Below, piece after piece: positions 11,678-42,393 of a DNA stretch of 64,000 bases. Under the pieces are notes generated by a model. It searched no databases. It was not told the DNA's origin and worked only from the letters and a program-made list of their open reading frames with translations. Position numbers and translations under genes: made by a program. Location: assembly GCA_012295275.1 (NCBI GenBank), contig CM022674.1:12896001-12960000 (forward strand), read 5' to 3'. Every line of letters begins with the position of its first letter. The stretch's first letter is position 1. The stretch comes from Chrysomallon squamiferum. Lineage: Eukaryota > Animalia > Mollusca.

Positions 11678-12838
11678 ATGAAGAATCTCGTAATACTGTG
11701 GATTCTGTTTGTAACTTCTCAAGGACTCGACAAAAACAGAACGTTACAATTACGTCACATGCTGCTGGATAACTATTCACGTGCCGTGCAGCCGACTTCC
11801 GGTAGTCAAAAACTTCTTTTGAAATTGCAACTAATTCCACTTTCTATTGTAGAACTTGATCAAACGAAGCAGACGTTCACTGTTCTTGCACACGTGTTTG
11901 TCACGTGGTTAGATCGAGAACTGGCGTGGAACGGAAGTGAATTCTCCGATGTGAAAACTTTATCTGTGCAACTGGATGACGTTTGGTGGCCGAAGTATCA
12001 AATTACTAATTCGGTTGACCGTGTTACTGGGCAGACTCTGTATTCGTCTATCCTGCTAATCAAGAACGGACAGGTAATCCACGGATCAACTGACGTGTTC
12101 AAAACTATTTGTACAGTTGACCTTACAAGGTATCCTTTCGACACGCAAGACTGTGCAATTATATTTTCGTCGTCGTCGTTGGACTACGATTACAGCGATC
12201 TCAATTCCAGTCTGCTAGACACTCGTCACGATTACTTCACGGAAACTAACGAATGGCTTTTGATCGATTTTTATTCCTTCACGAAAACTGCCGATTTCAG
12301 CGGGATCCCTATGGTTGAGTTTCATTTCAAACTTCGGCGACATTCGGTTTACTACGTACTCACGATCATACTGCCTGTAAGTCTTCTGTCAATTCTTGAT
12401 GCTTTTGTGTTTCTGCTTCCTGTCGAGTCAGGAGAGAAGATGTCTTTTCTCATCTCCATAATGCTGTCCTTCGCCGTCTATCTCAACTTCATTAATGACG
12501 TCATGCCCAAGTCGAAACAGGTTTCCAAACTGGCTGCTTACCTCGTTCTCGCACTCGCTCAAACCACCATTTCCATCATTATAACTATATGCACGTTAGA
12601 TGTCTATCACCGTGGCAACCGTAGTAGCCTCACCGACAAGAATAAAATAATTGGAACGCGTTCGTTTGCTGATGACGACACAAAAGAAGAGAAGACAACT
12701 GCGGAATTTTGTGGAAAACACTTCGTGAAAACGACTCAAAATGTCGCTCGTGCTCCATCAGCGCGCAAACTGAATTTGATTCTGTTTTCTGTGTTTCTGA
12801 TGTCTGCTTTGTTAAGCCCTTTTCTATTTTTAGTATGA
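11678..12838 (+). CDS. Atypical nAChR-like Cys-loop ligand-gated cation channel subunit, copy 1 (intronless, 386 aa)
   Basis: Signal peptide, WxD and WxP motifs, Cys-loop C145-x13-C159 with YPFD, LRR before TM1, GEK before TM2, four TM helices and no vicinal Cys in loop C. Confidence 0.93.
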   Translation: MKNLVILWILFVTSQGLDKNRTLQLRHMLLDNYSRAVQPTSGSQKLLLKLQLIPLSIVELDQTKQTFTVLAHVFVTWLDRELAWNGSEFSDVKTLSVQLDDVWWPKYQITNSVDRVTGQTLYSSILLIKNGQVIHGSTDVFKTICTVDLTRYPFDTQDCAIIFSSSSLDYDYSDLNSSLLDTRHDYFTETNEWLLIDFYSFTKTADFSGIPMVEFHFKLRRHSVYYVLTIILPVSLLSILDAFVFLLPVESGEKMSFLISIMLSFAVYLNFINDVMPKSKQVSKLAAYLVLALAQTTISIIITICTLDVYHRGNRSSLTDKNKIIGTRSFADDDTKEEKTTAEFCGKHFVKTTQNVARAPSARKLNLILFSVFLMSALLSPFLFLV

Positions 12839-14988
12839 AAAACACAATTCAAGACCGATAACTCTCGACAGGTAATCTAAGTTACTTTCGCATTTGGAGC
12901 TCGCAAATGTAACACTTGATTTGTTTGGGTTTTTTTTTTTTTTTTTTAGATATACAAAATACACTCGAACGACAATAATCGAGCAGAATATGTTTATTAA
13001 TGTTTTTAACTATAAACAAAACTCTTCAAGAGCTTTCATTTTCCAAAATGTTTGTGAATAACAATGCTTGGAGCGGTTTTGAGGGAGTTCACTGTCTGAG
13101 TACAGTGTTTTTTTATACGAAGAATCATTATTCAAACCCTGTCTCTGGAGATTACGTTCAAAGTTAGCACGATCTACAGTCAGGTCGTACGACTTTGTTC
13201 CGGATCCCAAGAGCTAAGAAGGGCCCCACAGCAATCATGCATTAACTGAATGTGTGTGCTACTTTATGTTATTTCTGATCATGGAAATAAATAATGTATG
13301 AGTTTACATGTAACTTTTCTGTCGGCTATAGAAATGTATTCACTAGTGTATTGATAGTATTTTATAGCAGATCGATTTCTGAGCAAATAATCAAATTATT
13401 ATTATTATTATTAGTTGTAGTAGTATTATTAGTAGTAGTTGTAGTAGTAGTAGTAGTAGTAGTAGTTGTTGTTGTAGTAGTAGTAGTAGTAGAAGCAGTA
13501 GTAGTAGTAGTAGTTGTACTGGTATTAGTATTACATTTATCGGAAGGACATCATGACGTAGTGGAAAAATCCTAAGGACAATGACGTCACATGCGATCTT
13601 CCAGAGTAACCATCGTTCACACAGTTTTATTTGGTAAGTTATCTTTCAATTTCAATTTTCTTGTCTCTTTTGGGTTTTGTCACACAGCCTTTTAAATTTA
13701 AATGAAACGACAGAAAAAGTTCTTAAATACTTATTATCAACAGATGCCTAATGCACAGGTTTCGTGTTCATTTCTTTGAAGACAGAGCACTGACTGAGAT
13801 TTCCTTTTTTCTTCAGAAGAAAATGGTTGAAATAAGAAAAAATCTCAAACATTATCTTCGATTCTTAAAAAATCAAATAAAATTCAGTTGGTGGTTCATA
13901 CAAACGATATCATTAATATATTACATTAGCGAGTACGTTAAAATAATTTGCTTCTTCATTTTCCTCGATTTCATTTTTATAGTTTCCTATTATTATTATT
14001 ATTATTATTATTATTAGAAAATATATATTCACGAACGATGGGGCCAAAACCTAATATTTATTGCGAACAAGTTGTCAGCAGACGAGATGATGATACTACA
14101 ACTACTGCCAGTACTGAAGAAATTTTGGTATCCTTGTGGTAGATAGATTTAAAAAAATCAAATAACTGTGTTGATTAAAAACAATTTCAAGAGATAAAAC
14201 GACAAAACAATCAGATAACACTGTTTATTTGGAAATTCTGAAAAAACTTCAGTTGATATAAAATGTCAGTTTCTGTGATTTCATTGCTACTGGGGATGAA
14301 ACAGATCAAAAATCAAACCTGAAACTGTGGCCAACGTCTGTGTCGATGTAAGCCTGCAACCGTCGTCTAGGAAAGCGTGTGACAACCGTAACATAATACA
14401 ATAATTTCAAAGCTTTCGCCTGAAATGTACGTCAGTGATTGTTACAACGAACATTTCAGCCCAGGCTGGGGGACGAGAACCCTGCTTTGAACCAGCCCGT
14501 CTGAAAAAGAAAAAAAAAGAAATATATATTAAAATAATTGTACTGTGTGTGTGTGTGTGTGTGTCTGTGTGTGTTTGTGTCTGTGTCTGGATGGATGGAT
14601 GGATGGATGGATGGATGGATGGATGGATGGATGGATGGATGGAAGGATGGAAGGATGGATGGATGGATGGAAGGATGGATGGATGGATGACTGCAACGTT
14701 ACAGTGTTTGACTTCTACTTCAGCGAAAACGTTATGTCACTTTTCGGTAAACACAAAAATCGTTGTGATCCAATGAAAATGTGAAATTATAATATTTGAC
14801 AGAGATAAAACAGACAGAGTTCTTTAAAAGTGAAATATAACGTATAACGTGTGTAGGTATATAAAAATATATATACATAGATACATACATCCATAAATAC
14901 AAACATATGTAGATATGTATGTACATATGTATATATACATACTGACACACATGCATATATAGATATACACATACACACGCACACATAT

Positions 14989-15020
<32 letters not shown>

Positions 15021-16330
15021 TATACAGATATACACACAAACATATATGTATATAATTATATACATCCTCAAAGAAAGAAAGAAACATTATTTATATACAA
15101 ACAAGTACACATGAATACTGCCCCCTTCAAAAATACGTTAACAAAGACTCATAAGCTTAAACATGTAAAATAGTAGACTTTCATAATAATTACGATTGTA
15201 GTAGTTTGTTGTAGTTGTAGTAATAATAATAATAATGTAGTAGCTTTGTCAGCAACAGTTGTTGTAGTAGTAGTAATAGAAGTAATTGTAATAATAGTAG
15301 TAGTCGTAATAATAGCAGTAGTACTTCTAGTAGTAGTATCAGTAATGGTAGCAGTAGTAGTAATAGAATTAAGCATTAGTAATGATAATGTTTTAATAGT
15401 TTAAACGGTTAATTTTATGAACAAGGAAATATCGACTATGAAGATGCTAAATACATGCTAAGACGAAATGTTGTTATGTAAAACATGCTGGATTAGGATT
15501 TAACTTCATTACGGCTTCCAGAGTTATTTCCCTTCCGTTTTAAAACCGAACTTTTTTTCTTCTATTCTTTTATTTCATTTGACTAATATTTTAGTTTATT
15601 TGACTGATATTTACTAATAGACAAATAGATAGGTAGATAGATAAATAAATAAATAAAATTTATATAAAACAAAATAAAATAAAATAAATTAAAAATTGGG
15701 TTAAAGTTACATACTGAATAAAATTCTAAATCTGAAAGATGTATCTGTCTGTCTGCGGATCAAATGAATAAATGAATGAATGAATGAAAATATGAATAAG
15801 GACATAAATAATTAAATATATAATAAGGAAGTAAATGTTCTAATTAATAAACATATGTAAATTAGTACAAAAAAAAAAAAATAATAATAATAGTAAATAA
15901 TAAATAAATTAATATAAAATGTTTTAAACGTTACTAAATATTTTCCCGAAAACTTCCGAGAACTAACGAATACCTAGATTCTCTTAAATATTGGAAAACG
16001 AATGCCCACTGGTTTTTGTCACTTTAATTGAAATTACAGAAACTCGAATGACTTGGGAAATCTATTTATTTCAGATTTACCTTTGTTTTATAGACACAGG
16101 TAAATTAATTAGTCTTTGCCTTTGATCTGCCATGGATATATTGAAACTAGATTAGAAACTGTTCTAATTATTTACTTTGTTAGTTTAGTTCGATGGAAGC
16201 TGAATTTCATTAACCCAGTTTAAATTTGAAGAAGAATATAAATTAGAAATAAAATGAATGAATGAATGAATGAATAAAAATAGGCGTACAGAAATAATGC
16301 TACAAGTACTGCTACTACTACTACTACTCT

Positions 16331-16407
<77 letters not shown>

Positions 16408-17823
16408 TCACTACCACTGCTGCTACTACTAATTGTACTGCTCTTATTAGTCATACTGCAATTATAATTACTACTACTACTTTTACTACTATTACGACAA
16501 CAGCAACTATAACTGTGCTGCTGTTACTTGTACACCTTTGCTGTTAGTATCCTTAATATTACTAAATTACTACTACTACTGTTACACCTACTGCTGCTAC
16601 TACTACTATTAGTACTACTGCTACTACTGTTACAACTACTACTACTACTATTACTACTACTGCTGCTACTACTACTATTACTACTACTACTGCTACTACT
16701 AATACTGCAACTACTACTACTGTTGCTTCTGCTGCTGATGATGATGTTTTTTGTACTACGACTCCAACTACTATTATTACATTGCTACTTCTACTACTAC
16801 TACTATTACTAATACTACTATTGTACTAGTAGCAGTAGTAATAACAATAATAGTAATAAATATAACAACAGCAACAATAATAATAATAATCGTATTTATA
16901 ATTCTTTCATTAAAATCAACCAGTAATACCTGGCTGTAGTAAAATATTATGAGCAATGACAATATGTTTGTGGAAACGAAGCTCAATCCTGCGAAAATTA
17001 CATTATTGTCTTCATCTGTTTGTTATACCTGAAAAACAATAAATGAACAGAACAAACGGAATTGATTTATTAATAACAAATATTTAATTCGTAACGGGAA
17101 GATAAATACAGTGTAATAAAAATGATTATGGTATGTCTTATTCACACATGTGTTTTGTGGTTACCAAAAGCAAGAAAAACCAATTAAAATGGACGGAAGT
17201 ATGTTAAAATGTAATTCTGGTGAGTTTGCAAGTTACAATAGCTGATATTCAGTACAAAATCAATTTAATTATTCTTTTCTGTATTTTTTTTTATTATTTT
17301 TTTTTTTTTCATTTTTTAATTCGAATTATTTTTATTTATTTATTTATTGTTTTGTTATTGTTTATTTGTTTATTTGTTTGTTTATTTCTAGTTGTTATTT
17401 CTTTGTTATTACTCGTTGTTTTGTTTTTGTTATGTGTTAAAAAAGTTATTTGAATATATACATTATCTTTATCGATACGTACCATATCAAACTAACATTG
17501 AAACATGAAATCTCTGTCTTTTTCTCTTTCTCTAAATAATACAAAATAATGAAATAAAATAAAATAAAATAATATAAAATAAAATAAACACATAAATAAC
17601 ATGTAGAAGGATAGGAAAAAAAAATATTTTTCATTAATTTAACAATCAGGTATCGCATTTGTTTACACATGTAATTGAAGAAGTAGGAATTGTTCTAAAA
17701 TCATGCAGGACAACGGAGTATAAAAATCAATAACAAAACAAACACTATTACAAGAACACACGTACAAATGTCAGTTAGCTCGCCAGCGCCGACTAAACAG
17801 GCAGAAAGTTTTTCGACGTAAAA

Positions 17824-18984
17824 ATGAAGAATCTCGTAATACTGTGGATTCTGTTTGTAACTTCTCAAGGACTCGACAAAAACAGAACGTTACAATTACG
17901 TCACATGCTGCTGGATAAATATTCACGTGCCGTGCAGCCGACTTCCGGTAGTCAAAAACTTATTTTGAAATTGCGACTAATTCCACTTTCTGTTGTAGAA
18001 CTTGATCAAACGAAGCAGACGTTCACTGTTCTCGCACACGTGATTGTCACGTGGTTAGATCGAGAACTGGCATGGAACGGAAGTGAATTCTCCGATGTGA
18101 ATACTTTATCTGTGCAACTGGATGACGTTTGGTGGCCGAAGTATCAAATTACTAATTTGGTGGACCGAGTTACTGGGCAGTCTCTGTATACGTCTATCCT
18201 GCTAATCAAGAACGGACAGGTAATATACAGATCAAATGAATTGTTCAAAACTATTTGTACAGTTGACCTTACAAGGTATCCTTTCGACACGCAAGATTGT
18301 GCAATTATATTTTCGTCATCGTCGTTGGACTACGATTACAGCGATCTCAATTCCAGTCTGCTAGACACTCGTCACGATTACTTTACGGAAACTAACGAAT
18401 GGCTTTTGATAGATTTTTATTCCTTCACGAAAACTGCCGATATAAGCGGGATGTCTATGGTTGAGTTTCATTTCAAACTTCGGCGACATTCGGTTTACTA
18501 CGTACTCACGATCATACTGCCTGTAAGTCTTCTGTCAATTCTTGATTCTTTTGTGTTTCTGCTTCCTGTCGAGTCAGGAGAGAAGATGTCTTTCCTCATC
18601 TCGATAATGCTGTCCTTCGCCGTCTATCTCAACTTCATTAATGACGTCATGCCCAAGTCGAAACTGGTTTCCAAACTGGCTGCTTACCTCGTTCTCGCAC
18701 TCGCTCAAAGCGCCATTTCCATCATTATAACTATATGCACGTTAGATGTCTATCACCGTGGCAACCGTACTAGCTTCACCGACAAGAATAAAATAATTCC
18801 AACTCGTTCGTCTGCTGATGACAACTCAAAAGAAGAGAAGACAACTGCGGAATTTTGTGGAAAACACTTCGTGAAAACGACTCAAAATGTCGCTCGTGCT
18901 CCATCAGCGCTCAAACTGAATTTGATTCTGTTTTCTGTGTTTCTGATGTCTGCTTTGTTGAGCCCTTTGCTATTTTTAGTATGA
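17824..18984 (+). CDS. Atypical nAChR-like Cys-loop channel subunit, copy 2
   Basis: Intact 386-aa ORF with the same motifs as copy 1. Confidence 0.93.
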   Translation: MKNLVILWILFVTSQGLDKNRTLQLRHMLLDKYSRAVQPTSGSQKLILKLRLIPLSVVELDQTKQTFTVLAHVIVTWLDRELAWNGSEFSDVNTLSVQLDDVWWPKYQITNLVDRVTGQSLYTSILLIKNGQVIYRSNELFKTICTVDLTRYPFDTQDCAIIFSSSSLDYDYSDLNSSLLDTRHDYFTETNEWLLIDFYSFTKTADISGMSMVEFHFKLRRHSVYYVLTIILPVSLLSILDSFVFLLPVESGEKMSFLISIMLSFAVYLNFINDVMPKSKLVSKLAAYLVLALAQSAISIIITICTLDVYHRGNRTSFTDKNKIIPTRSSADDNSKEEKTTAEFCGKHFVKTTQNVARAPSALKLNLILFSVFLMSALLSPLLFLV

Positions 18985-20906
18985 AAAACACAATTCAAGA
19001 CCGACAACTCTCGAGAGGTAATCTAAGTTACTTTCGCATTTGGAGCTCGCAAATGTAACACTTGATTTTTTATTTTTTTTATTTTTATTTTTTTTTAGAT
19101 ATACAAAATACACTCGAACGACAATTATGGAGCAGAATATGTTTATTAACTATAAATAAAACTCTTCAAGAGCTTTCATTTTCGCTCAAAGTTAGCACGA
19201 TCTACAGTCAGGTCGTATGACTTTGTTCCGGATCCCAAGAGTTAAGAAGAGCCCCACAGCAATCATGCATTAACTGAATGTGTGTGCTACTTTGTTATTT
19301 CTGATCATGGAAATAAATAATTTATGAGTTTACATGTAACTTTTCTGTCGGCTATAGAAATGTATTCACTAGTGTATTGATAGTATTTTATAGTAGATCG
19401 ATTTCTGAGCAAATAATCAAATTATTATTATTATTATTAGTTGTAGTAGTAGTAGTAGTAGTTGTTGTAGTAGTAGTAGTAGTAGCAGCAGTAGTAGTAG
19501 TAGTAGTTGTACTGGTATTAGTATTACATTTATCGGAAGGACTTCATGACGTACTTGAAAAATCCGAAGGACAATGACGTCACATGCGATCTTCCAGAGT
19601 AACCATCGTTCACACATTTTTATTTGGTAAGTTATCTTTCAATTTCAGTTTTCTTGTCTCTTTTGGCTTTTGTCATATAACTTTTAAATTTAAATGAAAT
19701 GACAGAAAAACTTCTTAAATACTTATTATCACCAGATGCCTAATGCACAGGTTTCATGTTCATTTCTTTGAAGACAGAGCACTGACTGAGATTTCCTTTT
19801 TTCTTCAGAAGAAAATGGTTGAAATAAGAAAAAATCTCAAACATTATCTTCGATTCTTAAAAAATCAAATAAAATTCAGTTGGTGGTTTATACAAACGAT
19901 GTTATTAATATATTACATTAGCGAGTACGTTAAAATAATTTGCTTCTTCATTTTCCTCGATTTCATTTTTATAGCTTCCTATTATTATTATTATTATTAT
20001 TATTAGAAAATATATATTCACGAATGATGGGGCCAAAACCTCATATTTACTGCGAACAAGTTGTCAGGAGAGGAGATGAGGATAATCCAACTACTGCCAG
20101 TACTGAAGAAATTTTTGTATCCTTGTGGTAGATAGATTTAAAAAAATCAAATAACTGTGTTGATTAAAAACAATTTCAAGAGATAAAACGACAAAACAAT
20201 CAGATAACACAGTTTATTTGGAAATTCTGAAAAACTTCAGTTGATATAAAATGTCACAGTTCTGTGATTTCATTGGTACTGGGGATGAAACAGGTCAACA
20301 ACCAAAACCTGAAGCTGTGGCCACCGTTTGTGTCGATGCAGACCTGCAACCGTCGTCTAGGAAAGCGTGTAACAACCGTAACATAAAACAATAATTTCAA
20401 AGCTTTCGCCTGAAATGTACGTCAGTGATTGTTACGACGAACATTTCAGCCCAGGCTGGTGGACGAGAACCCTGCTTTGAACCAGCCCACCTGAAAAAAA
20501 AAAAAAGAAATATATATTAAAATAATTGTACTGTGTGTGTGTGTGTATTTGTGTCTGTGTCTGGATGGATGGATGGATGGATGGATGGATGGATGGATAG
20601 AACGTTACAGTGTTTGACTTCTACTTCAGCGAAAACGTTATGTCACTTTTGGGTAAACACAAAAATCTTTGTGATCCAATAAAAATGTGAAATTATAATA
20701 TTTGACAGAGATAAAACAGACAGAGTTCTTTAAAAGTGAAGTATAACGTATAACGTGTGTAGGTATATAACAATATTCATACATAGATACATACATCCAT
20801 AAATACAAACATATATATATATATATATATTTATATATACATATGTATATATATATACTTTCACACCTGCATATGTAGATATACAGATACACACACACAC
20901 ACATAT

Positions 20907-20944
<38 letters not shown>

Positions 20945-21540
20945 ATACAGATATACACACAAACATATATGTATATAATTATATACATCCTCAAAGAAAG
21001 AAAGAAACATTATTTATATACAAACAAGTACACATGAATACTGCCTCCTTCAAAAATACGTTAACAAAGACTCATAAGCTTAATCATGTAAAATAGTAGA
21101 CTTTCATAATAATTACGATTGTAGTAGTTTGTTGTAGTTGTAGTAATAATAATAATAATGTAGTAGCTTTGTCAGCAACAGTTGTTGTAGTAGTAGTAAT
21201 AGAAGTAATTGTAATAATAGTAGTAGTCGTAATAATAGCAGTAGTACTACTAGTAGTAGTATCAGTAATGGTAGCAGTAGTGGTAATAGAATTAAGCATT
21301 AGTAATGATAATGTTTTAATAGTTTAAACGGTTAGTTTTATGAACAAGGAAATATCTTCTATGGAGATGCTAAATACATGATTAGACGAAATGTTGTTAT
21401 GTGAAACATTTTGATTAGGATTTAAATTCAATACGGCTTCCAGAGTTATTTCCCCTCCGTTTTAAAACCGAACTTTTTTTCTTCTATTCTTTTATTTTAG
21501 TTTATTTTAGTTTATTTGACTAATATTTACTAATAGATCA

Positions 21541-21585
<45 letters not shown>

Positions 21586-24013: not shown

Positions 24014-24049
<36 letters not shown>

Positions 24050-24294
24050 TACTACTACTACTATCACTACAACTGCTGCTACTACTAATTGTACTGCTCT
24101 TATTAGTTATACTGCAATTAAAAATACTACTACTACTTTTACTACGATTACAACAACAGCAACTATAACTGTGCTGCTGTTACTTGTACACCTTTGCTGT
24201 TAGTATCCTTAATATTACTAAATTACTACTAATACTATTACTCCTACTGCTGCTACTACTACTATTACTACTACTATTATTACTACTACTACTG

Positions 24295-24330
<36 letters not shown>

Positions 24331-27948: not shown

Positions 27949-28022
<74 letters not shown>

Positions 28023-29784: not shown

Positions 29785-31122
29785 AAAACACAATTCAAGA
29801 CCGATAACCCTCGACTGGTAGTCTCAGTTACTTTCGCCTTTGGAGCTCTGAAATGGAATTCTTCAATTTTTTCAGATATACAAAATACACTGGAACGACA
29901 ATTATCGACTAGAATATGGTTCTTGATGTTTTTAACTATAAACAATTCTCTTGAAGAGTATTCAATTTCGAATAAAATCTTTGTCAAACATTAATAATTT
30001 TTAATAGAGAAAGTTTATAATTATGCTGGTAGCGGTTTTGAGGCATTTCACTGTTTTTAATTCAATCAGAGTACATTGATTCTTTATACGAAGAATCTTT
30101 ATTGAAATCCTCCCTCTTGAGGATACGGTCAAAGTCAGAATGATCTACAGTCAGGTCCTATGAATTTGTTCAGGGGCCCAAGAACCAAGAAGGGCCTCAC
30201 AGCAATCATGCATTAACTGAATACGTGAGTTACATTATGTTATTTCTGATCATGGAAATAAATAATTAAATAATAATAAAGAAGTAAGTGTACTAATTAA
30301 TAAACATATGTAAATTAGCACAAAACATTATTAATAATAAGCAATAAATAAATTAATATAAAATGTTTTAAAAGTTTCTAAATATTCCACCGGAAACTTC
30401 CGAAAACTAACGAATGCCGACAGGTTTTCCATTTTTATTTAAGTTATACAAAATGGAATGACTTGGGATAATCTATTTATTTCAGATTTACCTTTGTTTT
30501 ATAAACACAGGTAAATTTATTAGTCTTTGCCTTTGATCTGCCTTGGATATACTGAAACTAGATTAGAACTTGTTCTAATTATTTACTTTGTTAGTTTAGT
30601 TCGATGGAAGCTGAATTTCATTAACCCGGTTTAAATTTGAAGGAGAAAGTAAATTAGAAATAATGTGAATGAATGAATAAATGAATGAATGAATGAATGA
30701 ATGAATGAATGAATGGATAAAAATAGGCGTAGGTAAATCAGCGGTGATATTTTTAATACTGTTCAATAGTACTATTACTACAGAAATTCTACTACTACTA
30801 CTACTACTATTACTACTACTGCTGCTGTTACTAATTATACTGCTATTATAATGTCACGCTTCAATTATTATTACTACTACTACTTTTACTATGACGACAA
30901 CAGCAACTATAACTGTGCAGTTGTTACTTCTAACACTGTTGCTGTTAGTATTCTTAATATTACTACTACTACTACAACTACTACTACTACTGTTGCTTCT
31001 GTTGACGATGACGATGCTTTTTGTACTACTAATCCCACTACTGTTATTACATTACTACTTCTACTACTACTACTAATACTAATGCTACTATAGTAGTAGT
31101 TGTATTAATAACAACAACTACC

Positions 31123-31166
<44 letters not shown>

Positions 31167-31767
31167 CGTAACTGTAATACTTTAATTAAAATCAACCAGT
31201 AATACCTGGCTTTAGTAATATATTAAGTGTAATGACAATATGTCTGTGCAAACGAAACTCAATTCAGCGGACGTTACATTATTGTCTTCATCTGTTTGTT
31301 GTACCTGAACAGGCAAAAACCAGGTAAATGAATAGAACAAAAGGAATTGATTTTTTAATGACAAATAGTTTAACTGATAAGTTGAAGATAAATATAGTGT
31401 AATACAAATGATTATGGCATGGCTTATTCAAACATCTGTTTTGTGGTTACTAAAAGCAAGAAAAATCTAATAAAAGGGACGAAAATATGTTAAAATGTGA
31501 TTCTGGTCAGTTTACAAGTAACAATAGTTGATGTTCCCTATAAAATGTAGCAGGATAGGAAACAAAAATAGTTTTCATTATTTTAACAATAATTTGTCGC
31601 ATTTATTTACAGATAAAATTGTAAAACTAGAAATCTTTCTGAAATCACACAGGACAATAAGTATAAAAATCGACAACCAAAACAAACACTATTACAAGAA
31701 CACACGTACAAATGTCAGTTAGCTCGCGAGCGCCGACTAAACAGGCAGAAAGTTTTTCGACGTAAAA

Positions 31768-32928
31768 ATGAAGAATCTCGTAATACTGTGGATTCTGTTT
31801 GTAACTTCTCAAGGACTCGACAAAAACAGAACGTTACAATTACGTCACATGCTGCTGGATAACTATTCACGTGCCGTACAGCCGACTTCCGGTAGTCAAA
31901 AACTTATTTTGAAACTGCGACTCCTTCCACTTTCTATTGTAGAACTTGATCAAACGAAGCAGACGTTCACTGTTCTCGCTCACGTGTTTGTCACGTGGTT
32001 AGATCCAGAACTGGCATGGAACGGAAGTGAATTCTCCGATGTGAAAACTTTATCTCTGGAACTGGATGACGTTTGGTGGCCGAAGTATCAAATTACTAAT
32101 TCGGTTGACCGAGTTACTGGGCAGACTCTGTATTCGTCTATCCTGCTAATCAAGAACGGACAGGTAATACACGGATCAACTGACGTGTTCAAAACTATTT
32201 GTACAGTTGACCTTACAAGGTATCCTTTCGACACGCAAGACTGTGCAATTATATTTTCGTCGTCGTCGTTGGACTACGATTACAGCGATCTCAATTCCAG
32301 TCTGCTAGACACTCGTCACGATTACTTTACGGAAACTAACGAATGGCTTTTGATCGATTTTTATTCCTTCACGAAAACTGCCGATTTAAGCGGGATCCCT
32401 ATGGTTGAGTTTCATTTCAAACTTCGGCGACATTCGGTTTACTACGTACTGACGATCATACTGCCTGTAAGTCTTCTGTCAATTCTTGATGCTTTTGTGT
32501 TTCTGCTTCCTGTCGAGTCAGGAGAGAAGATGTCTTTCCTCATCTCCATAATGCTGTCCTTCGCCGTCTATCTCAACTTCATTAATGACGTCATGCCCAA
32601 GTCGAAACAGGTTTCCAAACTGGCTGCTTACCTCGTTCTCGCACTCGCTCAAAGCGCCATTTCCATCATTATAACTATATGCACGTTAGATGTCTATCAC
32701 CGTGGCAACCGTAGTAGCTTCACCGACAAGAATAAAATAATTCCAACTCGTTCGTCTGCAGATGACAACACAAAAGAAGAGAAGACAACTGCGGAATTTT
32801 GTGGAAAACACTTCGTGAAAACGACTCAAAATGTCGCTCGTGCTCCATCAGCGCGCAAACTGAATTTGATTCTGTTTTCTGTGTTTCTGATGTCTGCTTT
32901 GTTAAGCCCTTTGCTATTTTTAGTATGA
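31768..32928 (+). CDS. Atypical nAChR-like Cys-loop channel subunit, copy 5
   Basis: Intact 386-aa ORF with the same motifs. Confidence 0.93.
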   Translation: MKNLVILWILFVTSQGLDKNRTLQLRHMLLDNYSRAVQPTSGSQKLILKLRLLPLSIVELDQTKQTFTVLAHVFVTWLDPELAWNGSEFSDVKTLSLELDDVWWPKYQITNSVDRVTGQTLYSSILLIKNGQVIHGSTDVFKTICTVDLTRYPFDTQDCAIIFSSSSLDYDYSDLNSSLLDTRHDYFTETNEWLLIDFYSFTKTADLSGIPMVEFHFKLRRHSVYYVLTIILPVSLLSILDAFVFLLPVESGEKMSFLISIMLSFAVYLNFINDVMPKSKQVSKLAAYLVLALAQSAISIIITICTLDVYHRGNRSSFTDKNKIIPTRSSADDNTKEEKTTAEFCGKHFVKTTQNVARAPSARKLNLILFSVFLMSALLSPLLFLV

Positions 32929-35900
32929 AAAACACAATTCAAGACCGACAACTCTCGACAGGTAATCTAAGTTACTTTCGCATTTGGAGCTCGCAAATGT
33001 AACATTTGATTATTTTTTTTATTATTGATTTTTTTTTTTTAGATATACAAAATACACTCGAACGACAATAATCGAGCAGAATATGTTTATTAATGTTTTT
33101 AACTATAAACAAAACTCTTCAAGAGCTTTCATTTTCCAAAATGTTTGTGAATAACTATGCTTGGAGCGGTTTTGAGGGAGTTCACTGTTTGAGTACAGTG
33201 TTTTTTTATACGAAGAATGATTATTCAAACCCTATCACTGGAGATTACGCTCAAAGTTAGCACGATCTACAGTCAGGTCGCACGACTTTGTTTCGGATCC
33301 CAAGAGCTAAGAAGAGCCCCACAGCAATCATGCATTAACTGAATGTGTGTGCTACTTTATGTTATATCTGATCATGGAAATAAATAATCTATGAGTTTAC
33401 ATGTAACTTTTATGTCGGCTATAGAAATGTATTCACTAGTGTATTGATAGTATTTTATAGTAGATCGATTTCTGAGCAAATAATCAAATTATTATTATTA
33501 TTATTACTTGTAGTAGTATTAGTAGTAGTAGTTGTAGTAGTAGTATTAGTAGTAGTAGCAGTAGTAGTAGTAGTAGTTGTACTGGTATTAGTATTACATT
33601 TATCGGAAGGACATCATGACGTAGTTGTAAAATCCTAAGGACAATGACGTCACATGCGATCTTCCAGAGTAACCATCGTTCACAGTTTTATTTGGTAAGT
33701 TATCTTTCAATTTCAATTTTCTTGTCTCTTTTGGTTTTTGTCACACAACTTTTAAATTTAAATGAAACGACAGAAAAAGTTCTTAAATACTTATTAACAC
33801 CAAATGCCTAATGCACAGGTTTCATTATTATTATTAGAAAATATATATTCACGAATGATGGGGCCAAAACCTAATATTTACTGCGAACAAGTTGTCAGCA
33901 GACGAGATGATGATACTACAACTACTGCCAATACTGAAGAAATTTTTGTATCCTTGTGGTAGATAGATTTAAAAAAATCTAATAACTGTGTTGATTAAAA
34001 ACAATTTCAAGAGATAAAACGACAACACAATCAGATAACACTGTTTATTTGGAAATTCTGAAAAAACTTCAGTTGATATAAAATGTCACAGTTTCTGTGA
34101 TTTCATTGGTACTGGGGATGAAACAGGTCAAAAATCAAACCTGAACCTGTGGCCAACGTCTGTGTCGATGCAAGCCTGCAACCGTCGTCTAGCAAAGCAT
34201 GTGACAACCGTAACATAATACAATAATTTCAAAGCTTTCGCCTGAAATGTACGTCAGTGATTGTAACGACGAACATTTCAGCCCAGGCTGGGGGACGAGA
34301 AACCTGCTTTGAACCAGCGCGTCTGAAAAAGAAACAAAGAAGAAATAAGATTAGAAAAAGAATCGTACTGTGTGTGTGTGTGTGTGTGTTTGTGTCTGTG
34401 TCTGGATGGATGGATGGATGGATGGATGGATGGAACGTTACAGTGTTTGACTTCTACTTCAGCGAAAACGTTATGGCACTTTTCGGTAAACACAAAAATC
34501 TTTGTGATCCTTTAAAAAGGTGATATTATAATATTTGACAGAGAAAAGAGAAGACAGAGTTCTTTAAAAGTGAAGTATAATGTATGTCGAACGTGTATAC
34601 GTATATAAAAATATACATTCATACATACATAGATTCACATATGTAGATATGTACATAAACATACATACATACACACATATGCATATATACATCCACATAC
34701 AGACAAACACATATTATATGTAGACGTACACACAAACATATATGCATATAATTATATATCCTCAAAGAAAGAAAGAATGAAACGTTATTTATATACAAAC
34801 AAGTACACATGAATACTGCCACCTACGTTAACTAACACTCATAAGCTTAAACACGTAGAATAGTAGACATTAAAAATAATGACGATAGTAGTAGCTGGTT
34901 GTAGTTGTAGTAGTAAGAATAATGTAGTAGGTGTGTCAGCAACAGTTGTTGTAGTAATAGTAATAGAATCAATTGTAATTATAGTAGTAGTATAAGTAAT
35001 GGTAGCAGTAGAAGTAATGTAATTAAGTATTAATGATGGTAGTGATAAAAATGTTTTAATAGTTTAAACGGTTAGTTTTATGAACAAGGAAATAACGACT
35101 ATGAAGATGGTAAATACATGCTTAAACGAAATCTTGTTACGTGAATCATCTTGGTTAGGATTTAAATTCAATACGGCTTCCAGAGTTATTTCCCCTCCAG
35201 TTTAAAACAGAAAATGTGATTTTCTTTTTTTTTTTTATTTTTTTTATTTGACTAATCTTTACTCATAGATAGATAGATAGATAAATAAATAAATAAATAA
35301 ATAAAATTTATATAAAATAAAATAAAATAAAAAGAAAATTGGGTTAAAGTTACATATTCAATAAAATTGTAAATCCGAAAGATGTATGTGTCTGCACGAT
35401 CAGTTTGGGGATCAAATGAATAAATAAATGAATGAATAATTGAATGAAAGAATGAATAAGGAAATAATAAAATAATAATAAGCAAGCAAATGTTCTAATG
35501 AATAAACATATGTAAATTAGTAAAAAATAATAATAATAATAGTAAATAATAAATAAATTAAAATAAAATGTTTTAAACGTTACTAAATATTTCTCCGGAA
35601 ACTTCCGAAAACTAACGAATGCCTAGATTCTCTTAAATATTGGAAAAGGAACGCCCATAGGTTTGTCACCTTAATTGAAATTACAGAAACTCGAAAGACT
35701 TGGGAAATCTATTTATTTCAGATTTACCTTTGTTTTATTACTATGACGACAACAGCAAGTACAACTGTGCTGCTGTTACTTTTAACACCGTTGCTGTTAA
35801 TATTCTTAATATTACTACAACTACTACTATTACTACAACTACTCCTACTACTACTACTATTAAAACTACCACTACTAGTTCTAGAACTGGTACTACTACT

Positions 35901-37066
35901 AATATTACTACTACTGCTACTACTACTGCTACTACTACTACTATTACTACTACTACTGCTACTACTAATACTGCAACTACTACTACTACTGTTGCTTCTG
36001 CTGCTGCTGCTGATGTTTTTTTGTACTACGACTCCAACTACTATTATTACATTACTACTTCTACTACTACTACTATTACTAATACTACTATTGTACTAGT
36101 ATCAGTAGTAATACGAATAACAGCAATAAATATAACAACAACAACAACAATAATAATAATCCTATTTATAATTCTTTCATTAAAATCAACCAGTAATACC
36201 TGGCTGTAATAAAATATTATGAGCAATGACAATATGTTTGTGGAAACGAAACTCAATCCTGCGAAAATTACATTATTGTCTTCATCTGTTTGTTATACCT
36301 GAAAAACAATAAATGAACAGAACAAACGGAATTGATTTATTAATAACAAATATTTAATTCATAACGAGAAGATAAATATAGCGTAATAAAAATGATTATG
36401 GGATGACTTATTCACATATGTGTTTTGTGGTTACAAAAAGCAAGAAAAACCAATTAAAATGGACGGAAGTATGTTAAAATGTAATTCTGGTGAGTTTGCA
36501 AGTTACAGTAGCTGATATTCAGTACAGAATCAATTTAGTTATTCTTTTCTGTGTTCTTTTTATTATTATTTTTTTGATTTTTTAATTCTAATTATTTTTA
36601 TTTATTTATTGTTTTGTTATTGTTTATTTGTTTATTTGTTTGTTTATTTCTAGTTGTTATTTGTTTGTTATTACTCGTTTTTTTTTTTTTTTTGGTTTTT
36701 ATGTCTTAAAAATGTTATTTGAATATATAGATTATCTTTATCGATACGTACCATATCAAACTAACATCGAAACATGAAATCTCTGTCTTTTTCTCTTTCT
36801 CTAAATAATACAAAATAATGAAATAAAATAAAATAAAATAAAATAAACACATAAATAACATGTAGCAGGATAGGAAAAAAAAAATCATTGATTTAACAAT
36901 AAGGTATAGCATTTGTTTACACACGTAATTGAAGAAGTAGGAATCATGCAGGACAACGAAGTATAAAAATCAATAACAAAACAAACACTATTACAAGAAC
37001 ACACGTACAAATGTCAGTTAGCTCGCGAGCGCCGACTAAACAGGCAGAAAGTTTTTCGACGTAAAA

Positions 37067-38227
37067 ATGAAGAATCTCGTAATACTGTGGATTCTGTTTG
37101 TAACTTCTCAAGGACTCGACAAAAACAGAACGTTACAATTACGTCACATGCTGCTGGATAACTATTCACGTGCCGTGCAGCCGACTTCCGGTAGTCAAAA
37201 ACTTATTTTGAAATTGCGACTCCTTCCACTTTCTATTGTAGAACTTGATCAAACGAAGCAGACGTTCACTATTCTCGCACACGTGTTTGTCACGTGGTTA
37301 GATCCAGAACTGGCATGGAACGGAAGTGAATTCTCTGATGTGAAAACTTTATCTCTGCAACTGGATGAAGTTTGGTGGCCGAAGTATCAAATTACTAATT
37401 CGGTTGACCGTGTTACTGGGCAGACTCTGTATTCGTCTATCCTGCTAATCAAGAACGGACAGGTAATCTACGGATCAACTGACGTGTACAAAACTATTTG
37501 TACAGTTGACCTTACAAGGTATCCTTTCGACACGCAAGACTGTGCAATTATATTTTCGTCGTCGTCGTTGGACTACGAATACAGCGATCTCAATTCCAGT
37601 CTGCTAGACACTCGTCACGATTACTTCACGGAAACTAACGAATGGCTTTTGATCGATTTTTATTCCTTCACGAAAACTGCCGATTTAAGCGGGATACCTA
37701 TGGTTGAGTTTCATTTCAAACTTCGGCGACATTCGGTTTACTACGTACTCACGATCATACTGCCTGTAAGTCTTCTGTCAATTCTTGATGCTTTTGTGTT
37801 TCTGCTTCCTGTCGAGTCAGGAGAGAAGATGTCTTTTCTCATCTCCATAATGCTGTCCTTCGCCGTCTATCTCAACTTCATTAATGACGTCATGCCCAAG
37901 TCGAAACGCGTTTCCAAACTGGCTGCTTACCTCGTTCTCGCACTCGCTCAAAGCGCCATTTCCATCATTATAACTATATGCACGTTAGATGTCAATTACC
38001 GTGGTAACCGTAGTAGCTTCACCGACAAGAATAAAATAGTTCCAACTCGTTCGTCTGCTGATGACAGCAAAAAAGAAGAGAAGACAACTGCGGAATTTTG
38101 TGGAAAACACTTCGAGGAAACGACTCAAAATGTCGCTCGTGCTCCATCAGCACGCAAACTGAATTTGATTCTGTTTTCTGTGTTTCTGATGTCTGCTTTG
38201 TTAAGCCCTTTGCTATTTTTAGTATGA
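37067..38227 (+). CDS. Atypical nAChR-like Cys-loop channel subunit, copy 6
   Basis: Intact 386-aa ORF with the same motifs. Confidence 0.93.
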   Translation: MKNLVILWILFVTSQGLDKNRTLQLRHMLLDNYSRAVQPTSGSQKLILKLRLLPLSIVELDQTKQTFTILAHVFVTWLDPELAWNGSEFSDVKTLSLQLDEVWWPKYQITNSVDRVTGQTLYSSILLIKNGQVIYGSTDVYKTICTVDLTRYPFDTQDCAIIFSSSSLDYEYSDLNSSLLDTRHDYFTETNEWLLIDFYSFTKTADLSGIPMVEFHFKLRRHSVYYVLTIILPVSLLSILDAFVFLLPVESGEKMSFLISIMLSFAVYLNFINDVMPKSKRVSKLAAYLVLALAQSAISIIITICTLDVNYRGNRSSFTDKNKIVPTRSSADDSKKEEKTTAEFCGKHFEETTQNVARAPSARKLNLILFSVFLMSALLSPLLFLV

Positions 38228-38603
38228 AAAATATAATTCAAGACCGACAACTAATTCAAGACCGATAACTCTCGCATTTGGATCTCTGAAATGGAATTCT
38301 TAAATTTTTTGAGATATACAAAATACCCTCGAACGACAATTATCGACTAGAATATGGTTCTTGATGTTTTTAACTATAAACAATTCTCTTGAAGAGTATT
38401 CAATTTCGAATAAAATCTTTGTCAAACATTAATAATTTTTAATAGAGAAAGTTTATAATTATGCTGGTAGCGGTTTTGAGGCATTTCACTGTTTTTAATT
38501 CAATCAGAGTATGAAAAATATAATTCAAGACCGACAACTAATTCAAGACCGATAACTCTCGCATTTGGATCTCTGAAATGGAATTCTTAAATTTTCTGAG
38601 ATA

Positions 38604-39327
38604 CAGTATACCCTCACCTGTTCGCGGTTCCCCATTCGCGGCCCCGCATATTCGCGGCTTAGGCTCTTAACCGTATCGCATCGTGTGCTGGTATACCAGG
38701 CTAGCGTTATAACGTCATAAAAACAAATGCTCGGTAAACCGCACAAACAATATCAAATTTTTTCAATTATTATTGCAATACAGTACGTATTTTTTTATAA
38801 ATGCATACACTGTATGTACAGTGCATATTATTTGTGACCGTGTATTAATAATGTTTTTAATTTCATATTATTACTGAATTGTATTATTATTACCTGAACT
38901 GTGCGTACTGTATTTATCTGTCTGTTTGCCTTTAAATTTGTTCCACTTTCTGGCAATTCTAATACATATGTTGTACGCATAGAAAATGACTTTACGGTAC
39001 AGTAATAGTGTATGGGTTACTGTGCTTTGCGGTGTTACTGTCCTCCTGTACTTACGTTTCTTTCTGATTAAAATATTGTTTCAGTACAAAATTAAAATAT
39101 GTTTACATTATCATTACTACATTAGTGAAATACATAACTGCATGCAATATTACTACATTATTACTGTATTAATGAGTAAGAGTGTCTTTAGAAAGTGTTT
39201 GGGAAGCATTTAGTACCGTATATAATCTCATAATAGACGTTTTAAAACTGCATCCAATATTCGCGGTTTTTCGCTATTCGCGGGGGGGGTAAAGAACGTA
39301 ACCCCCGCGAATAGCGAGGGAATACTG
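38604..39327. mobile_element. 724-bp pogo/Tigger-like (Tc1/mariner superfamily) MITE with TA target-site duplication
   Basis: Left TIR CAGTATACCCTCACCTGTTCGCGG versus right TIR (reverse complement) CAGTATTCCCTCGCTATTCGCGG; subterminal TATTCGCGG repeats; TA at 38602-38603 and 39328-39329; empty site GAGATATACAAAATACC at about 38311. Confidence 0.9.
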
Positions 39328-40560
39328 TATACAAAATACCCTCGAACGACAATTATCGACTAGAATATGGTTCTTGATGTTTTTAACTATAAACAATTCT
39401 CTTGAAGAGTATTCAATTTCGAATAAAATCTTTGTCAAACATTAATAATTTTTAATAGAGAAAGTTTATAATTATGCTGGTAGCGGTTTTGAGGCATTTC
39501 ACTGTTTTTAATTCAATCAGAGTACATTGATTTTTTATACGAAGAATCTTTATTGAAACCCTCCCTCTTGAGAATACGGTCAAAGTCAGAATTATCTACA
39601 GTCAGGTCCTATGACTTTGTTCTGAGGCCCAAGATCCAAGAAGGGCCTCACAGCAATCATGCATTAACTGAATACGTGAGTTACATTATGTTATTTCTGA
39701 TCATGGAAATAAATAATTAAATAATAATAAAGAAGTAAGTGTACTAATTAATAAACATATGTAAATTAGTACAAAACATTATTAATAATAAGCAATAAAT
39801 AAATTAATATAAAATGTTTTAAAAGTTACTAAATATTCCACCGGAAACTTCCGAAAACTAACGAATGTCGACAGGTTTTCCATTTTTATTTAAGTTATAG
39901 AAAATGGAACGACTTTGGATAATCTATTTATTTCAGATTTACCTTTGTTTTATAGACACAGGTAAATTTATTAGTCTTTGCCTTTGATCTGCCTTGGATA
40001 TACTGAAACTAGATTAGAAACTGTTCTAATTATTTACTTTGTTAGTTTAGTTCGATGGAAGCTGAATTTCATTAACCCGGTTTAAATTTGAAGGAGAAAG
40101 TAAATTAGAAATAATGTGAATGAATGAATAAATGAATGAATGAAAGAATGGATAAAAATAGGCGTAGGTAAATCAGCGGTGATATTTTTAACACTGTTCA
40201 ATAGTACTATTACTACAGAAATTCTACTACTACTACTACTACTACTACTACTATTACTATCACTACTACTACTACTGCTGCTGTTACTAATTATACTGCT
40301 ATTATTAGTCACGCTTCAATTATTATTACTACTACTACTTTTACTATGACGACAACAGCAACTATAACTGTGCAGTTGTTACTTCTAACACTGTTGCTGT
40401 TAGTATTCTTAATATTACTACTACTAATACAACTACTACTACTACTACTACTACTACCACTGTTGCTTCTGCTGACGATGATGATGCTTTTTGTACTACT
40501 AATCCCACTACTATTACTAATGCTACTATAGTAGTAGTTGTATTAATAACAACAACTACC

Positions 40561-40631
<71 letters not shown>

Positions 40632-41232
40632 CGTAACTGTAATACTTTCATTAAAATCAACCACTAATACCTGGCTTTAGTAAAATATTAAGTGTAATGA
40701 CAATATCTCTGCGCAAACGAAACTCAATCCAGCGGACATTACATTATTGTCTTCATCTGTTTGTTACACCTGAACAGGCAAAAACCAGGTAAATGAATAG
40801 AACAAAAGGAATTGATTTTTTAATGACAAATAGTTTAACTGATAAGTTGAAGATAAATATAGTGTAATACAAATGATTATGGCATGGCTTATTCAAACAT
40901 CTGTTTTGTGGTTACTAAAAGCAAGAAAAATCAAATAAAAGGGACGAAAATATGTTAAAATGTGATTCTGGTCAGTTTACAAGTAACAATAGCTGATGTT
41001 CCCTATAAAATGTAGCAGGATAGGAAACAAAAATAGTTTTCATTATTTTAACAATAATTTGTCGCATTTATTTACAAATATAACTGTAAAACTAGAAATC
41101 TTTCTGAAATCACACAGGACAATAAGTATAAAAATCGACAACCAAAACAAACACTATTACAAGAACACACGTACAAATGTCAGTTAGCTCGCGAGCGCCG
41201 ACTAAACAGGCAGAAAGGTTTTCGACGTAAAA

Positions 41233-42393
41233 ATGAAGAATCTCGTAATACTGTGGATTCTGTTTGTAACTTCTCAAGGACTCGACAAAAACAGAACGTT
41301 ACAATTACGTCACATGCTGCTGGATAACTATTCACGTGCCGTGCAGCCGACTTCCGGTGGTCATAAACTTCTTTTGAAGTTGCGACTAGCTCCACTTTCT
41401 ATTATCGAACTTGATCAAACGAAGCAGACATTCACTGTTCTCGCACACGTGAGTGTCACGTGGTTAGATCGAGAACTGGCGTGGAACGGAAGTGAATTCT
41501 CCGATGTGAAAACTTTATCTCTGGAACTGGATGACGTTTGGTGGCCGAAGTATCAAATTACTAATTTGGTGGACCGAGTTACTGGGCAGTCTCTGTATAC
41601 GTCTGTCCTGCTGATCAAGAACGGACAGGTAACATACAGATCAAATGAACTGTTCAAAACTATTTGTACAGTTGACCTTACAAGGTATCCTTTCGACACG
41701 CAAGACTGTGCAATTATATTTTCGTCGTCGTCGTTGGACTACGATTACAGCGATCTCAATTCCAGTCTGCTAGACACTCGTCACGATTACTTCACGGAAA
41801 CTAACGAATGGGTTTTGATAGATTTTTATTCCTTCACGAAAACTGCCGATATAAGCGGGATGTCTATGGTTGAGTTTCATTTCAAACTTCGGCGACATTC
41901 GGTTTACTACGTACTCACGATCATACTGCCTGTAAGTCTTCTGTCAATTCTTGATGCTTTTGTGTTTCTGCTTCCTGTCGAGTCAGGAGAGAAGATGTCT
42001 TTTCTCATCTCCATAATGCTGTCCTTCGCCGTCTATCTCAACTTCATTAATGACGTCATGCCCAAGTCGAAACGCGTTTCCAAACTGGCTGCTTACCTCG
42101 TTCTCGCACTCGCTCAAAGCGCCATTTCCATCATTATAACTATATGCACGTTAGATGTCTATCACCGTGGCAACCGTAGTCGCTTCACCGACAAGAATAA
42201 AATAATTCCAACTCGTTCGTCTGCTGATGACGACACAAAAGAAGAGAAGACAACTGCGGAATTTTGTGGAAAACACTTCGTGAAAACGACTCAAAATGTC
42301 GCTCGTGCTCCATCAGCGCGCAAACTGAATTTGATTCTGTTTTCTGTGTTTCTGATGTCTGCTTTGTTAAGCCCTTTGCTATTTTTAGTATGA
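41233..42393 (+). CDS. Atypical nAChR-like Cys-loop channel subunit, copy 7
   Basis: Intact 386-aa ORF with the same motifs. Confidence 0.93.
   Translation: MKNLVILWILFVTSQGLDKNRTLQLRHMLLDNYSRAVQPTSGGHKLLLKLRLAPLSIIELDQTKQTFTVLAHVSVTWLDRELAWNGSEFSDVKTLSLELDDVWWPKYQITNLVDRVTGQSLYTSVLLIKNGQVTYRSNELFKTICTVDLTRYPFDTQDCAIIFSSSSLDYDYSDLNSSLLDTRHDYFTETNEWVLIDFYSFTKTADISGMSMVEFHFKLRRHSVYYVLTIILPVSLLSILDAFVFLLPVESGEKMSFLISIMLSFAVYLNFINDVMPKSKRVSKLAAYLVLALAQSAISIIITICTLDVYHRGNRSRFTDKNKIIPTRSSADDDTKEEKTTAEFCGKHFVKTTQNVARAPSARKLNLILFSVFLMSALLSPLLFLV

What the first reader, a model, noticed from the sequence alone, without database searches (positions are those of the whole stretch)
11678..42393. Tandem array of seven intronless orphan Cys-loop channels that have lost the ACh-binding site: candidate chemosensory receptor cluster
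Seen: seven same-strand single-exon copies. Loop A is PKYQITN (canonical PDIVLYN), loop B is FSSSSLD (canonical FGSWTY), the loop D Trp is replaced by His72, and loop C is short (KTAD[F/I/L]SG[IP/MS]) with no vicinal Cys or flanking Tyr. The M3-M4 loop is short, while GEK and the 9' Leu in TM2 are kept. Known: cephalopod chemotactile receptors are intronless, tandemly arrayed, ACh-insensitive nAChR derivatives, and bivalves also have intronless nAChR expansions. Inference: a very young, lineage-specific expansion of cation-permeable receptors for environmental ligands, either a chemotactile receptor subfamily or a convergent system.
Basis: partly seen in the sequence, partly recalled or inferred. 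Interest (0 to 1): 0.88.

Follow-up and report, generated by a model that had tools for sequence, protein, structure and literature searches.

The report
Snail orphan nicotinic-like receptor array
A mollusc genome (likely a snail) carries seven neighbouring, intron-free copies of a nicotinic-receptor-like channel gene that lack the acetylcholine-binding residues and differ from each other disproportionately around the predicted binding pocket, so they likely detect other chemicals; such arrays are already known in molluscs, and these belong to an old, uncharacterised snail lineage rather than, as far as tested, the octopus taste-by-touch family.

Summary
The array is real. Seven same-strand single-exon Cys-loop genes are present; six are intact (386 aa), and copy 3 has a 2-base insertion that removes M4. 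All motif claims hold. In an independent run, receptor contigs are 5.6-7.3 times deeper than the neighbouring DHFR contig. The nearest relative is from the snail Gigantopelta (54%). The copies sit in a well-supported clade whose 21 named members are all gastropods, and the acetylcholine aromatic box is missing throughout it. So the site loss is old and gastropod-wide, not lineage-specific. Octopus CRT1 and squid CRB1 are no closer (25%, 19%) than human alpha7 (26%). Copies are mosaics: 2 and 7 share a block spanning loops A-E-C despite unrelated flanks, so low dS partly reflects conversion. Replacements concentrate at pocket-facing positions (7 of 14, against 24 of 191 elsewhere in the extracellular domain). 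That site set was chosen post hoc, and dN/dS above 1 is only suggestive. Best reading: orphan cation channels for non-acetylcholine ligands, probably chemosensory and convergent with cephalopod chemotactile receptors. Ligand and tissue are untested. Intronless tandem molluscan nAChR arrays are published.

The parts
11678..12838 (+). copy 1, intact 386-aa single-exon nAChR-like subunit (pocket type A)
17824..18984 (+). copy 2, intact (pocket type B, shares a converted block with copy 7)
25450..26612 (+). copy 3, 2-base insertion in an A-run at ~26420; ORF ends at 26424 (324 aa, no M4); pseudogene, allele or assembly error
   Evidence: no such insertion row among X4 contigs laid on copy 5, which shows presence only
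28624..29784 (+). copy 4, intact (type A)
31768..32928 (+). copy 5, intact (type A); used for searches and the structure model
37067..38227 (+). copy 6, intact (type A)
41233..42393 (+). copy 7, intact (pocket type B)
18158..18454 (+). block in copy 2 (CDS nt 335-631, codons 112-211) shared with copy 7: 11 fixed differences from the other five copies, 9 of them amino-acid changing
41567..41863 (+). the same block in copy 7
8609..42816 (.). whole duplicated region: gene-plus-flank units, start-to-start spacing 3.1-7.6 kb; upstream flanks group as (2,3,6), (4,5,7) and (1)
   Evidence: self-blastn

Best explanation
This is a real tandem array of six intact and one frameshifted single-exon Cys-loop subunits that lack the acetylcholine-binding residues and belong to an old gastropod clade of divergent nicotinic-like subunits; they likely form cation channels gated by small molecules other than acetylcholine, probably as chemical sensors. 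Shown: signal-peptide-like N-terminus, Cys-loop, four TM helices, cation-type M2 (E-1', S2', S6', L9', D20'), loss of the loop A/B/C/D cage, mosaic copies, and replacements concentrated at positions that line the inter-subunit pocket in nAChRs (51, 53, 74, 134, 136, 207, 210). Inferred from family knowledge: the subunits assemble as homo- or mixed pentamers; a ligand binds between loop C of one subunit and the beta1/beta2/beta6 face of the next, opening a Na+/Ca2+ pore that depolarises the cell. The pocket is aliphatic, with small residues at loops A/B, His72, Arg51 (Gln in copy 1) and a second Arg at 136 in copies 2 and 7, and no cation-pi cage, so a neutral or anionic amphipathic ligand is predicted rather than a quaternary amine. 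Tandem duplication plus gene conversion would keep the scaffold uniform while shuffling pocket variants, giving a small tuned repertoire. The peripheral sensory role is the least supported step (about 0.4 alone).
For: Architecture and fold. Pocket mapping. Clade: SH-aLRT 99.6 and FastTree 0.997; 21 of 41 clade proteins carry a name and all 21 are gastropods; loop A Tyr 0 of 46, loop D Trp 0 of 43, loop C CC 1 of 46, loop B Trp 0 of 45 against 96 of 147 outside; D138- and R209-equivalents kept in 37 of 37 and -1' Glu in 34 of 37. Variation: 7 of 14 pocket positions vary against 24 of 191 other ECD positions (hypergeometric p 0.0015; entropy-matched p 0.018); pN 0.42 against 0.056; 4 of the 5 ECD sites with three or more residues are pocket sites; the signal persists without copies 2 and 7 (p 0.003 for 14 sites). 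Both faces of the pocket vary, which fits a site formed by these subunits themselves. Purifying selection outside the pocket: pN/pS 0.34. Octopus CRT1 has positively selected pocket residues Y58, W122, F124, F192 (10.1101/2025.03.03.641191, passages); their spacing resembles the variable sites here, but CRT1 was not aligned.
Against: No ligand, tissue or current was measured. Both pocket sets were fixed after I had seen the variable-codon list, and positions 51 and 53 were added to the 12-site core. With the core alone the evidence weakens: hypergeometric p 0.021, entropy-matched p 0.11 for variable positions, p 0.065 without copies 2 and 7. Pocket dN/dS above 1 is only suggestive (1.8-2.5 against ECD synonymous sites; p 0.009-0.12 by set and counting rule). 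Loop C register is ambiguous by 1-2 residues. One copy is broken, and the nearest relative P0001 is itself truncated in M2. The alphaE45 gating position is Gln62. RNA evidence is thin: one 171-292 nt contig per run at depth 2.6-4.4 in three runs of one study, and DNA carry-over is not excluded. In bivalves expanded nAChRs are highest in gill and some respond to infection (PMC6896357), which fits non-neural roles too.
Confidence: 0.5

Rival explanations
1. Ligand-gated by a non-ACh signal, but in internal, immune or epithelial signalling (gill, haemocytes, symbiont-bearing tissue) rather than in sensory neurons.
For: Expanded bivalve nAChRs peak in gill and respond to stress and infection (PMC6896357). 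The only RNA holders are libraries labelled metatranscriptomic.
Against: Pocket diversification fits this equally well, so nothing here separates it from the best reading; the RNA signal is too weak to name a tissue.
Confidence: 0.2
2. Accessory non-alpha subunits that sit at the non-binding position of ordinary ACh receptors and tune kinetics.
For: Loss of both principal and complementary residues is what a non-binding subunit shows (established knowledge of muscle beta1); pore and gating residues are kept.
Against: Replacements cluster on both pocket faces; the clade is a long-branched gastropod radiation with repeated tandem expansions, not a conserved orthogroup.
Confidence: 0.13
3. Neutral birth-and-death: redundant duplicates under relaxed constraint, some decaying, with no change in specificity.
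For: Overall dN/dS 0.57; copy 3 frameshifted; P0001 truncated; 31% of intron-poor nAChRs in pearl oyster have no or low expression (PMC6896357); pocket dN/dS not clearly above 1 for the 12-site set.
Against: Six of seven ORFs intact; ECD outside the pocket at 0.34 and a sevenfold pN excess at pocket sites; the type B block has 9 replacement and 2 silent fixed differences.
Confidence: 0.12
4. A subfamily orthologous to cephalopod chemotactile receptors (or the broader 'CR-like' clade).
For: Same genomic style and same kind of pocket loss; a CR-like clade extends to gastropods (PMC13174522, section 3.4).
Against: CRT1 25% identity, Z 18.9; CRB1 19%, Z 19.1; alpha7 26%, Z 24.1; Gigantopelta 54%; no cephalopod among 21 named clade members.
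Confidence: 0.05

Closest known systems
Expanded intronless, tandem molluscan nAChR-like genes (Jiao et al. 2019, PMC6896357)
   Same: Single-exon genes in tandem arrays (7-gene arrays listed for both oyster and pearl oyster), species-specific clustering, frequent loss of ACh-binding residues.
   Different: That work centres on bivalves and does not test pocket-level divergence; this array is from a gastropod clade, and its family number there was not determined.
Gastropod RefSeq/GenBank 'acetylcholine receptor subunit-like' proteins (Gigantopelta P0001, P0020; Haliotis P0002-3, P0005-6, P0099; Littorina, Babylonia, Batillaria, Bulinus, Physella)
   Same: One clade (SH-aLRT 99.6); no aromatic cage; GEK filter; polar 16' residue; signs of recent tandem copies (consecutive accessions on one Haliotis contig, fused three-domain Bulinus model).
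   Different: Automatic names only. The window's copies have 9' Leu where 30 of 37 aligned members have Val.
Cephalopod chemotactile receptors (CRT1, CRB1)
   Same: Works like (inferred): intronless nAChR derivatives with a remodelled, diversifying orthosteric pocket.
   Different: Not the nearest relatives (19-25% identity); host is a gastropod by homology; CRT1's pocket is aromatic (Y58, W122, F124, F192) whereas this one is aliphatic with His/Arg; no functional or tissue data here.
Alvinella Alpo4 orphan receptor (PMC10338036)
   Same: Lophotrochozoan nAChR-like channel without vicinal Cys and without a known agonist.
   Different: Alpo4 keeps loop B and loop D Trp and loop C tyrosines; 22% identity to the model.

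Membership tests
Cys-loop (pLGIC) cation-type subunit | ECD with 13-residue Cys-loop plus four TM helices | tested here: met
   C145-C159; Pfam PF02931 + PF02932; hydropathy; fold Z 24.1 to alpha7
Cys-loop (pLGIC) cation-type subunit | -1' Glu (GEK) filter, no PAR motif | tested here: met
   G252-E253-K254, S2', S6', L9', D20'
Cys-loop (pLGIC) cation-type subunit | Forms a conducting pentamer | not testable with these tools
   needs expression and recording
nAChR alpha subunit | Vicinal Cys in loop C; loop A Tyr, loop B Trp, loop C Tyr pair | tested here: not met
   T110, S166, L/F/I207, I/M210, no CC
nAChR ligand-binding non-alpha subunit | Loop D Trp on the complementary face | tested here: not met
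   H72 aligns with Torpedo delta W57
Expanded molluscan intronless/tandem nAChR-like genes | Intronless coding sequence | tested here: met
   continuous ORFs aligning end to end with relatives
Expanded molluscan intronless/tandem nAChR-like genes | Tandem array of species-specific paralogues nested among molluscan sequences | tested here: met
Cephalopod chemotactile receptors | Nearest relatives are cephalopod CRs | tested here: not met
   Gigantopelta 54%, sister with SH-aLRT 100; CRT1 25%, CRB1 19%; 21 of 21 named clade members are gastropods
Cephalopod chemotactile receptors | Monophyly with the CR or CR-like clade in a tree | not tested
Cephalopod chemotactile receptors | Intronless gene, ACh cage lost | tested here: met
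Cephalopod chemotactile receptors | Diversifying selection on the orthosteric pocket | tested here: inconclusive
   enrichment p 0.0015-0.11 by set and control; omega above 1 p 0.009-0.12; sets post hoc
Cephalopod chemotactile receptors | Expression in peripheral sensory epithelium; ACh-insensitive, gated by natural products | not testable with these tools
   only low-depth contigs in three RNA runs of unknown tissue

The most novel reading that the evidence does not exclude
Gastropods have their own, independently evolved ionotropic chemoreceptor family: an old snail-wide clade of ACh-blind nicotinic-like channels that repeatedly expands in tandem and retunes its pocket by point change and gene conversion, parallel to cephalopod chemotactile receptors; this array is a snapshot of that tuning, possibly towards microbial or surface-bound metabolites.
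Probability: 0.35. Interest if true: 0.8.

Novelty: new member of a known kind. Interest (0 to 1): 0.48.

Why it matters
Why molluscs carry 60-200 nAChR-like genes, and whether non-cephalopod molluscs use them as chemoreceptors, is an open question (PMC6896357; PMC13174522 names it as untested). Six near-identical subunits (92-98% identity) that differ at a handful of pocket residues are a natural mutagenesis series: if one is deorphanised, the type A / type B contrast tests directly how specificity is retuned. If sensory, it would be a second origin of taste-like receptors from nicotinic receptors.

Tried and rejected
Whole-genome search: no genome is held for this window, so other family members and synteny could not be counted. 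CRs were not among the best 60 PDB sequence hits for the full protein, the TM part, the ECD or the clade profile nor among the rows shown by Foldseek; absence from a cut list is not exclusion. Three named-protein searches returned no cephalopod protein, so no tree with CRs was built. The primary CR papers (PMC10228259, PMC7605239, PMC10262778, PMC11055638) are not held. The MolluscaGenes supplement was unreadable; it may already place this clade among its 15 named clades. Atlas: no search of the window protein was possible; a homologue gave only generic nAChR clusters. RNA contigs did not cover DHFR or most of the receptor CDS; holes prove nothing. Earlier scan findings: nothing by sequence or words. 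Seven paper searches showed no paper describing this clade functionally; most subscription papers are outside the library. No complex prediction was run, since a pass would follow from likeness to solved nAChRs. Assembly artefact rejected. The supports printed after re-rooting were shifted along the path; I use the corrected values. Loop B counts from alignment columns were gappy and were redone from unaligned sequence.
Full report
Observation. Under the standard code the window has seven + strand ORFs at the stated places, and tblastn with copy 1 finds exactly these seven. Six encode 386 aa. Copy 3 has a 2-base insertion in an A-run at about 26420 and ends at 324 aa without M4. Two copies scanned match PF02931 and PF02932. 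Hydropathy shows an N-terminal hydrophobic stretch and TM segments near 222-252, 254-276, 282-310 and 364-386, leaving an M3-M4 loop of about 50 aa. Alignment to Torpedo alpha and delta and to a CC-bearing homologue confirms T110 for the loop A Tyr, S166 for the loop B Trp, H72 for the loop D Trp, I/M210 for the second loop C Tyr, and no vicinal Cys. M2 has E-1', S2', S6', L9', V13', N16', D20'. The neighbouring ubiquitin-hydrolase gene is split into many short exons, so the single-exon state is not a property of the whole region.

Are the copies real? They differ at 17-42 of 966 nt and have distinct flanks. In run X4 the long contigs on the coding sequence have depths 301, 262 and 231, while the 1119-nt contig over the adjacent DHFR gene has 41, a ratio of 5.6-7.3. 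The run's kind is not on record and the tool warns that contig depth is not a copy number, so this is consistent with six or seven copies, not proof. No X4 contig laid on copy 5 showed the copy 3 insertion; contigs drop rare variants, so the frameshift may be real, allelic or an error.

Relatives. The closest named protein is from Gigantopelta aegis (53-54%), then Haliotis (34-37%). I built a FastTree tree from 199 stretches of 163 of the 164 fetched proteins (P0084 left out) plus the copies, and an IQ-TREE tree on 83 rows (supports read correctly). The copies are monophyletic (99.4), sister to Gigantopelta P0001 (100), inside a long-branched clade (SH-aLRT 99.6; FastTree 0.997) of 46 stretches from 41 proteins. 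Of these 41, 21 carry a name, 7 were looked up and have none, and 13 were not looked up. All 21 are gastropods: Gigantopelta 5, Haliotis 9, Batillaria 2, Bulinus 2, Littorina, Babylonia, Physella. The host is therefore most likely a gastropod (inference). Within the clade the loop A Tyr is present in 0 of 46, the loop D Trp in 0 of 43 and loop C CC in 1 of 46; the loop B Trp is present in 0 of 45 against 96 of 147 outside. The loss of the ACh site is thus old and shared across major gastropod lineages. Pore and gating residues stay: D138- and R209-equivalents in 37 of 37, -1' Glu in 34 of 37; 9' is Val in 30 of 37 and 16' mostly Asn or Ser. Haliotis members with consecutive accessions on one contig in one 90% cluster, and a three-domain Bulinus gene model, point to recent tandem copies elsewhere in the clade (inference).

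Relation to chemotactile receptors. The AlphaFold model (mean pLDDT 73) aligns best to alpha7 (Z 24.1, rmsd 4.5, 325 aligned, 26%). CRB1 gives Z 19.1 (rmsd 5.2, 301, 19%) and CRT1 Z 18.9 (rmsd 4.7, 285, 25%; that chain lacks the C-terminal part). No CR sequence could be obtained, so monophyly with the CR or the wider CR-like clade (PMC13174522, section 3.4 and passages read) was not tested. On what was tested these are not CR family members; they may work like them.

History of the array. Upstream flanks group copies as (2,3,6), (4,5,7) and (1), with 85-89% identity between groups, whereas CDS nt 301-660 groups (2,7) against the rest. Of 46 informative sites, 522 of 1035 pairs are incompatible, and compatible sites cluster (36 of 45 neighbours; 0 of 20000 permutations reached this); nine sites unique to copies 2+7 lie between nt 335 and 631. 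This is the pattern of gene conversion or unequal crossover. dS of 0.02-0.07 therefore understates the array's age. The type B block carries 9 replacement and 2 silent fixed differences.

Pocket divergence. I mapped nAChR pocket positions (alpha Y93, W149, Y190, C192, C193, Y198; delta W57, D59, L111, R113, T119, L121; plus delta S36, T38). Their role as binding determinants is recalled knowledge; the mapping comes. Both sets were fixed after I had seen the variable codons. For 14 sites, 7 vary against 24 of 191 other ECD positions (p 0.0015; entropy-matched p 0.018), with pN 0.42 against 0.056. For the 12-site core, 5 vary (p 0.021; entropy-matched p 0.11). Counting residue states, the permutation p is 4e-5 and 0.0016; without copies 2 and 7, p is 0.003 and 0.065. 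Four of five ECD sites with three or more residues (53, 74, 136, 207) are pocket sites. Pocket pN over ECD pS is 1.8-2.5 (p 0.009-0.12), so positive selection is suggested, not shown; the rest of the ECD is at 0.34. In CRT1, Y58, W122, F124 and F192 are reported as positively selected ligand contacts (10.1101/2025.03.03.641191, passages); their spacing resembles 72/74, 134, 136 and 207, but I could not align CRT1.

Expression. Three RNA runs of one study each hold one 171-292 nt contig on the ECD coding region at depth 2.6-4.4. Those of X1 and X3 are type A (3 and 2 differences from copy 5; 14 from copy 7); that of X2 is type B (3 from copy 7; 13 from copy 5). A minority-type contig is a weak hint of transcription, but DNA carry-over of a multi-copy gene is not excluded and the tissue is unknown.

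Mechanism and verdict. Most likely these subunits form pentameric cation channels opened by a non-ACh ligand bound at the subunit interface. The aliphatic pocket with His72, Arg51 (Gln in copy 1) and, in type B, Arg136 predicts a neutral or anionic amphiphile (inference). A chemosensory role is the best guess (about 0.4), with internal or immune signalling, accessory-subunit and neutral-decay rivals. Intronless tandem nAChR-like arrays, including 7-gene arrays and loss of ACh residues, are published for molluscs (PMC6896357, parts 1-3 of 6 and passages read), and a gastropod chemosensory role for divergent nAChR clades has been proposed as untested (PMC13174522). Also consulted as passages: PMC11526382, PMC10338036, PMC11682238, 10.1101/2024.05.23.594666. 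So this is a new member of a known kind. Its added value is the gastropod-wide clade and the pocket-focused, conversion-shuffled variation. Interest 0.48.

Noticed in passing
window 44063-44614 (+): Dihydrofolate reductase (PF00186) with an uninterrupted 183-aa coding sequence, 1.7 kb after copy 7; single-copy-like depth in run X4. Could be a retrocopy or an intron-less orthologue.
   Followed up: partly
window ~50373-53704 (-) and ~55057-63339 (+): A multi-exon USP5/USP13-like gene (zf-UBP, UCH) head-to-head with a gene whose exon has repeated PRSPT motifs (CDCA3-like by recall; no Pfam hit). CDCA3 and USP5 are head-to-head neighbours in human too (recalled), which would be deep microsynteny.
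   Followed up: partly
window 12871-12949, 19017-19098, 32961-33042: A possible ~80-nt intron in the 3' UTR of copies 1, 2 and 5 (GGTAA donor 33 nt after the stop, T-run plus TAG acceptor); the donor is missing in copies 3, 4, 6 and 7. Untested by RNA.
   Followed up: no
about 105 and 56 nt upstream of each start (e.g. 31662, 31712): TATAAAA in six of seven copies (not copy 3) and an out-of-frame upstream ATG giving a 17-codon uORF that stops just before the main start (19 codons, overlapping it, in copy 1).
   Followed up: no
M2 of the clade (alignment A2): The gastropod clade has Val at 9' (30 of 37) and Asn/Ser at 16', an unusual gate; the window's copies have Leu at 9', possibly a reversion.
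   Followed up: partly
codon 281 of the copies (M2-M3 loop): Four residues (Q/L/H/R) at one gating-interface position outside the pocket.
   Followed up: no
window 62097-62659: Tandem repeat of ~37-nt units inside an intron of the USP gene.
   Followed up: no
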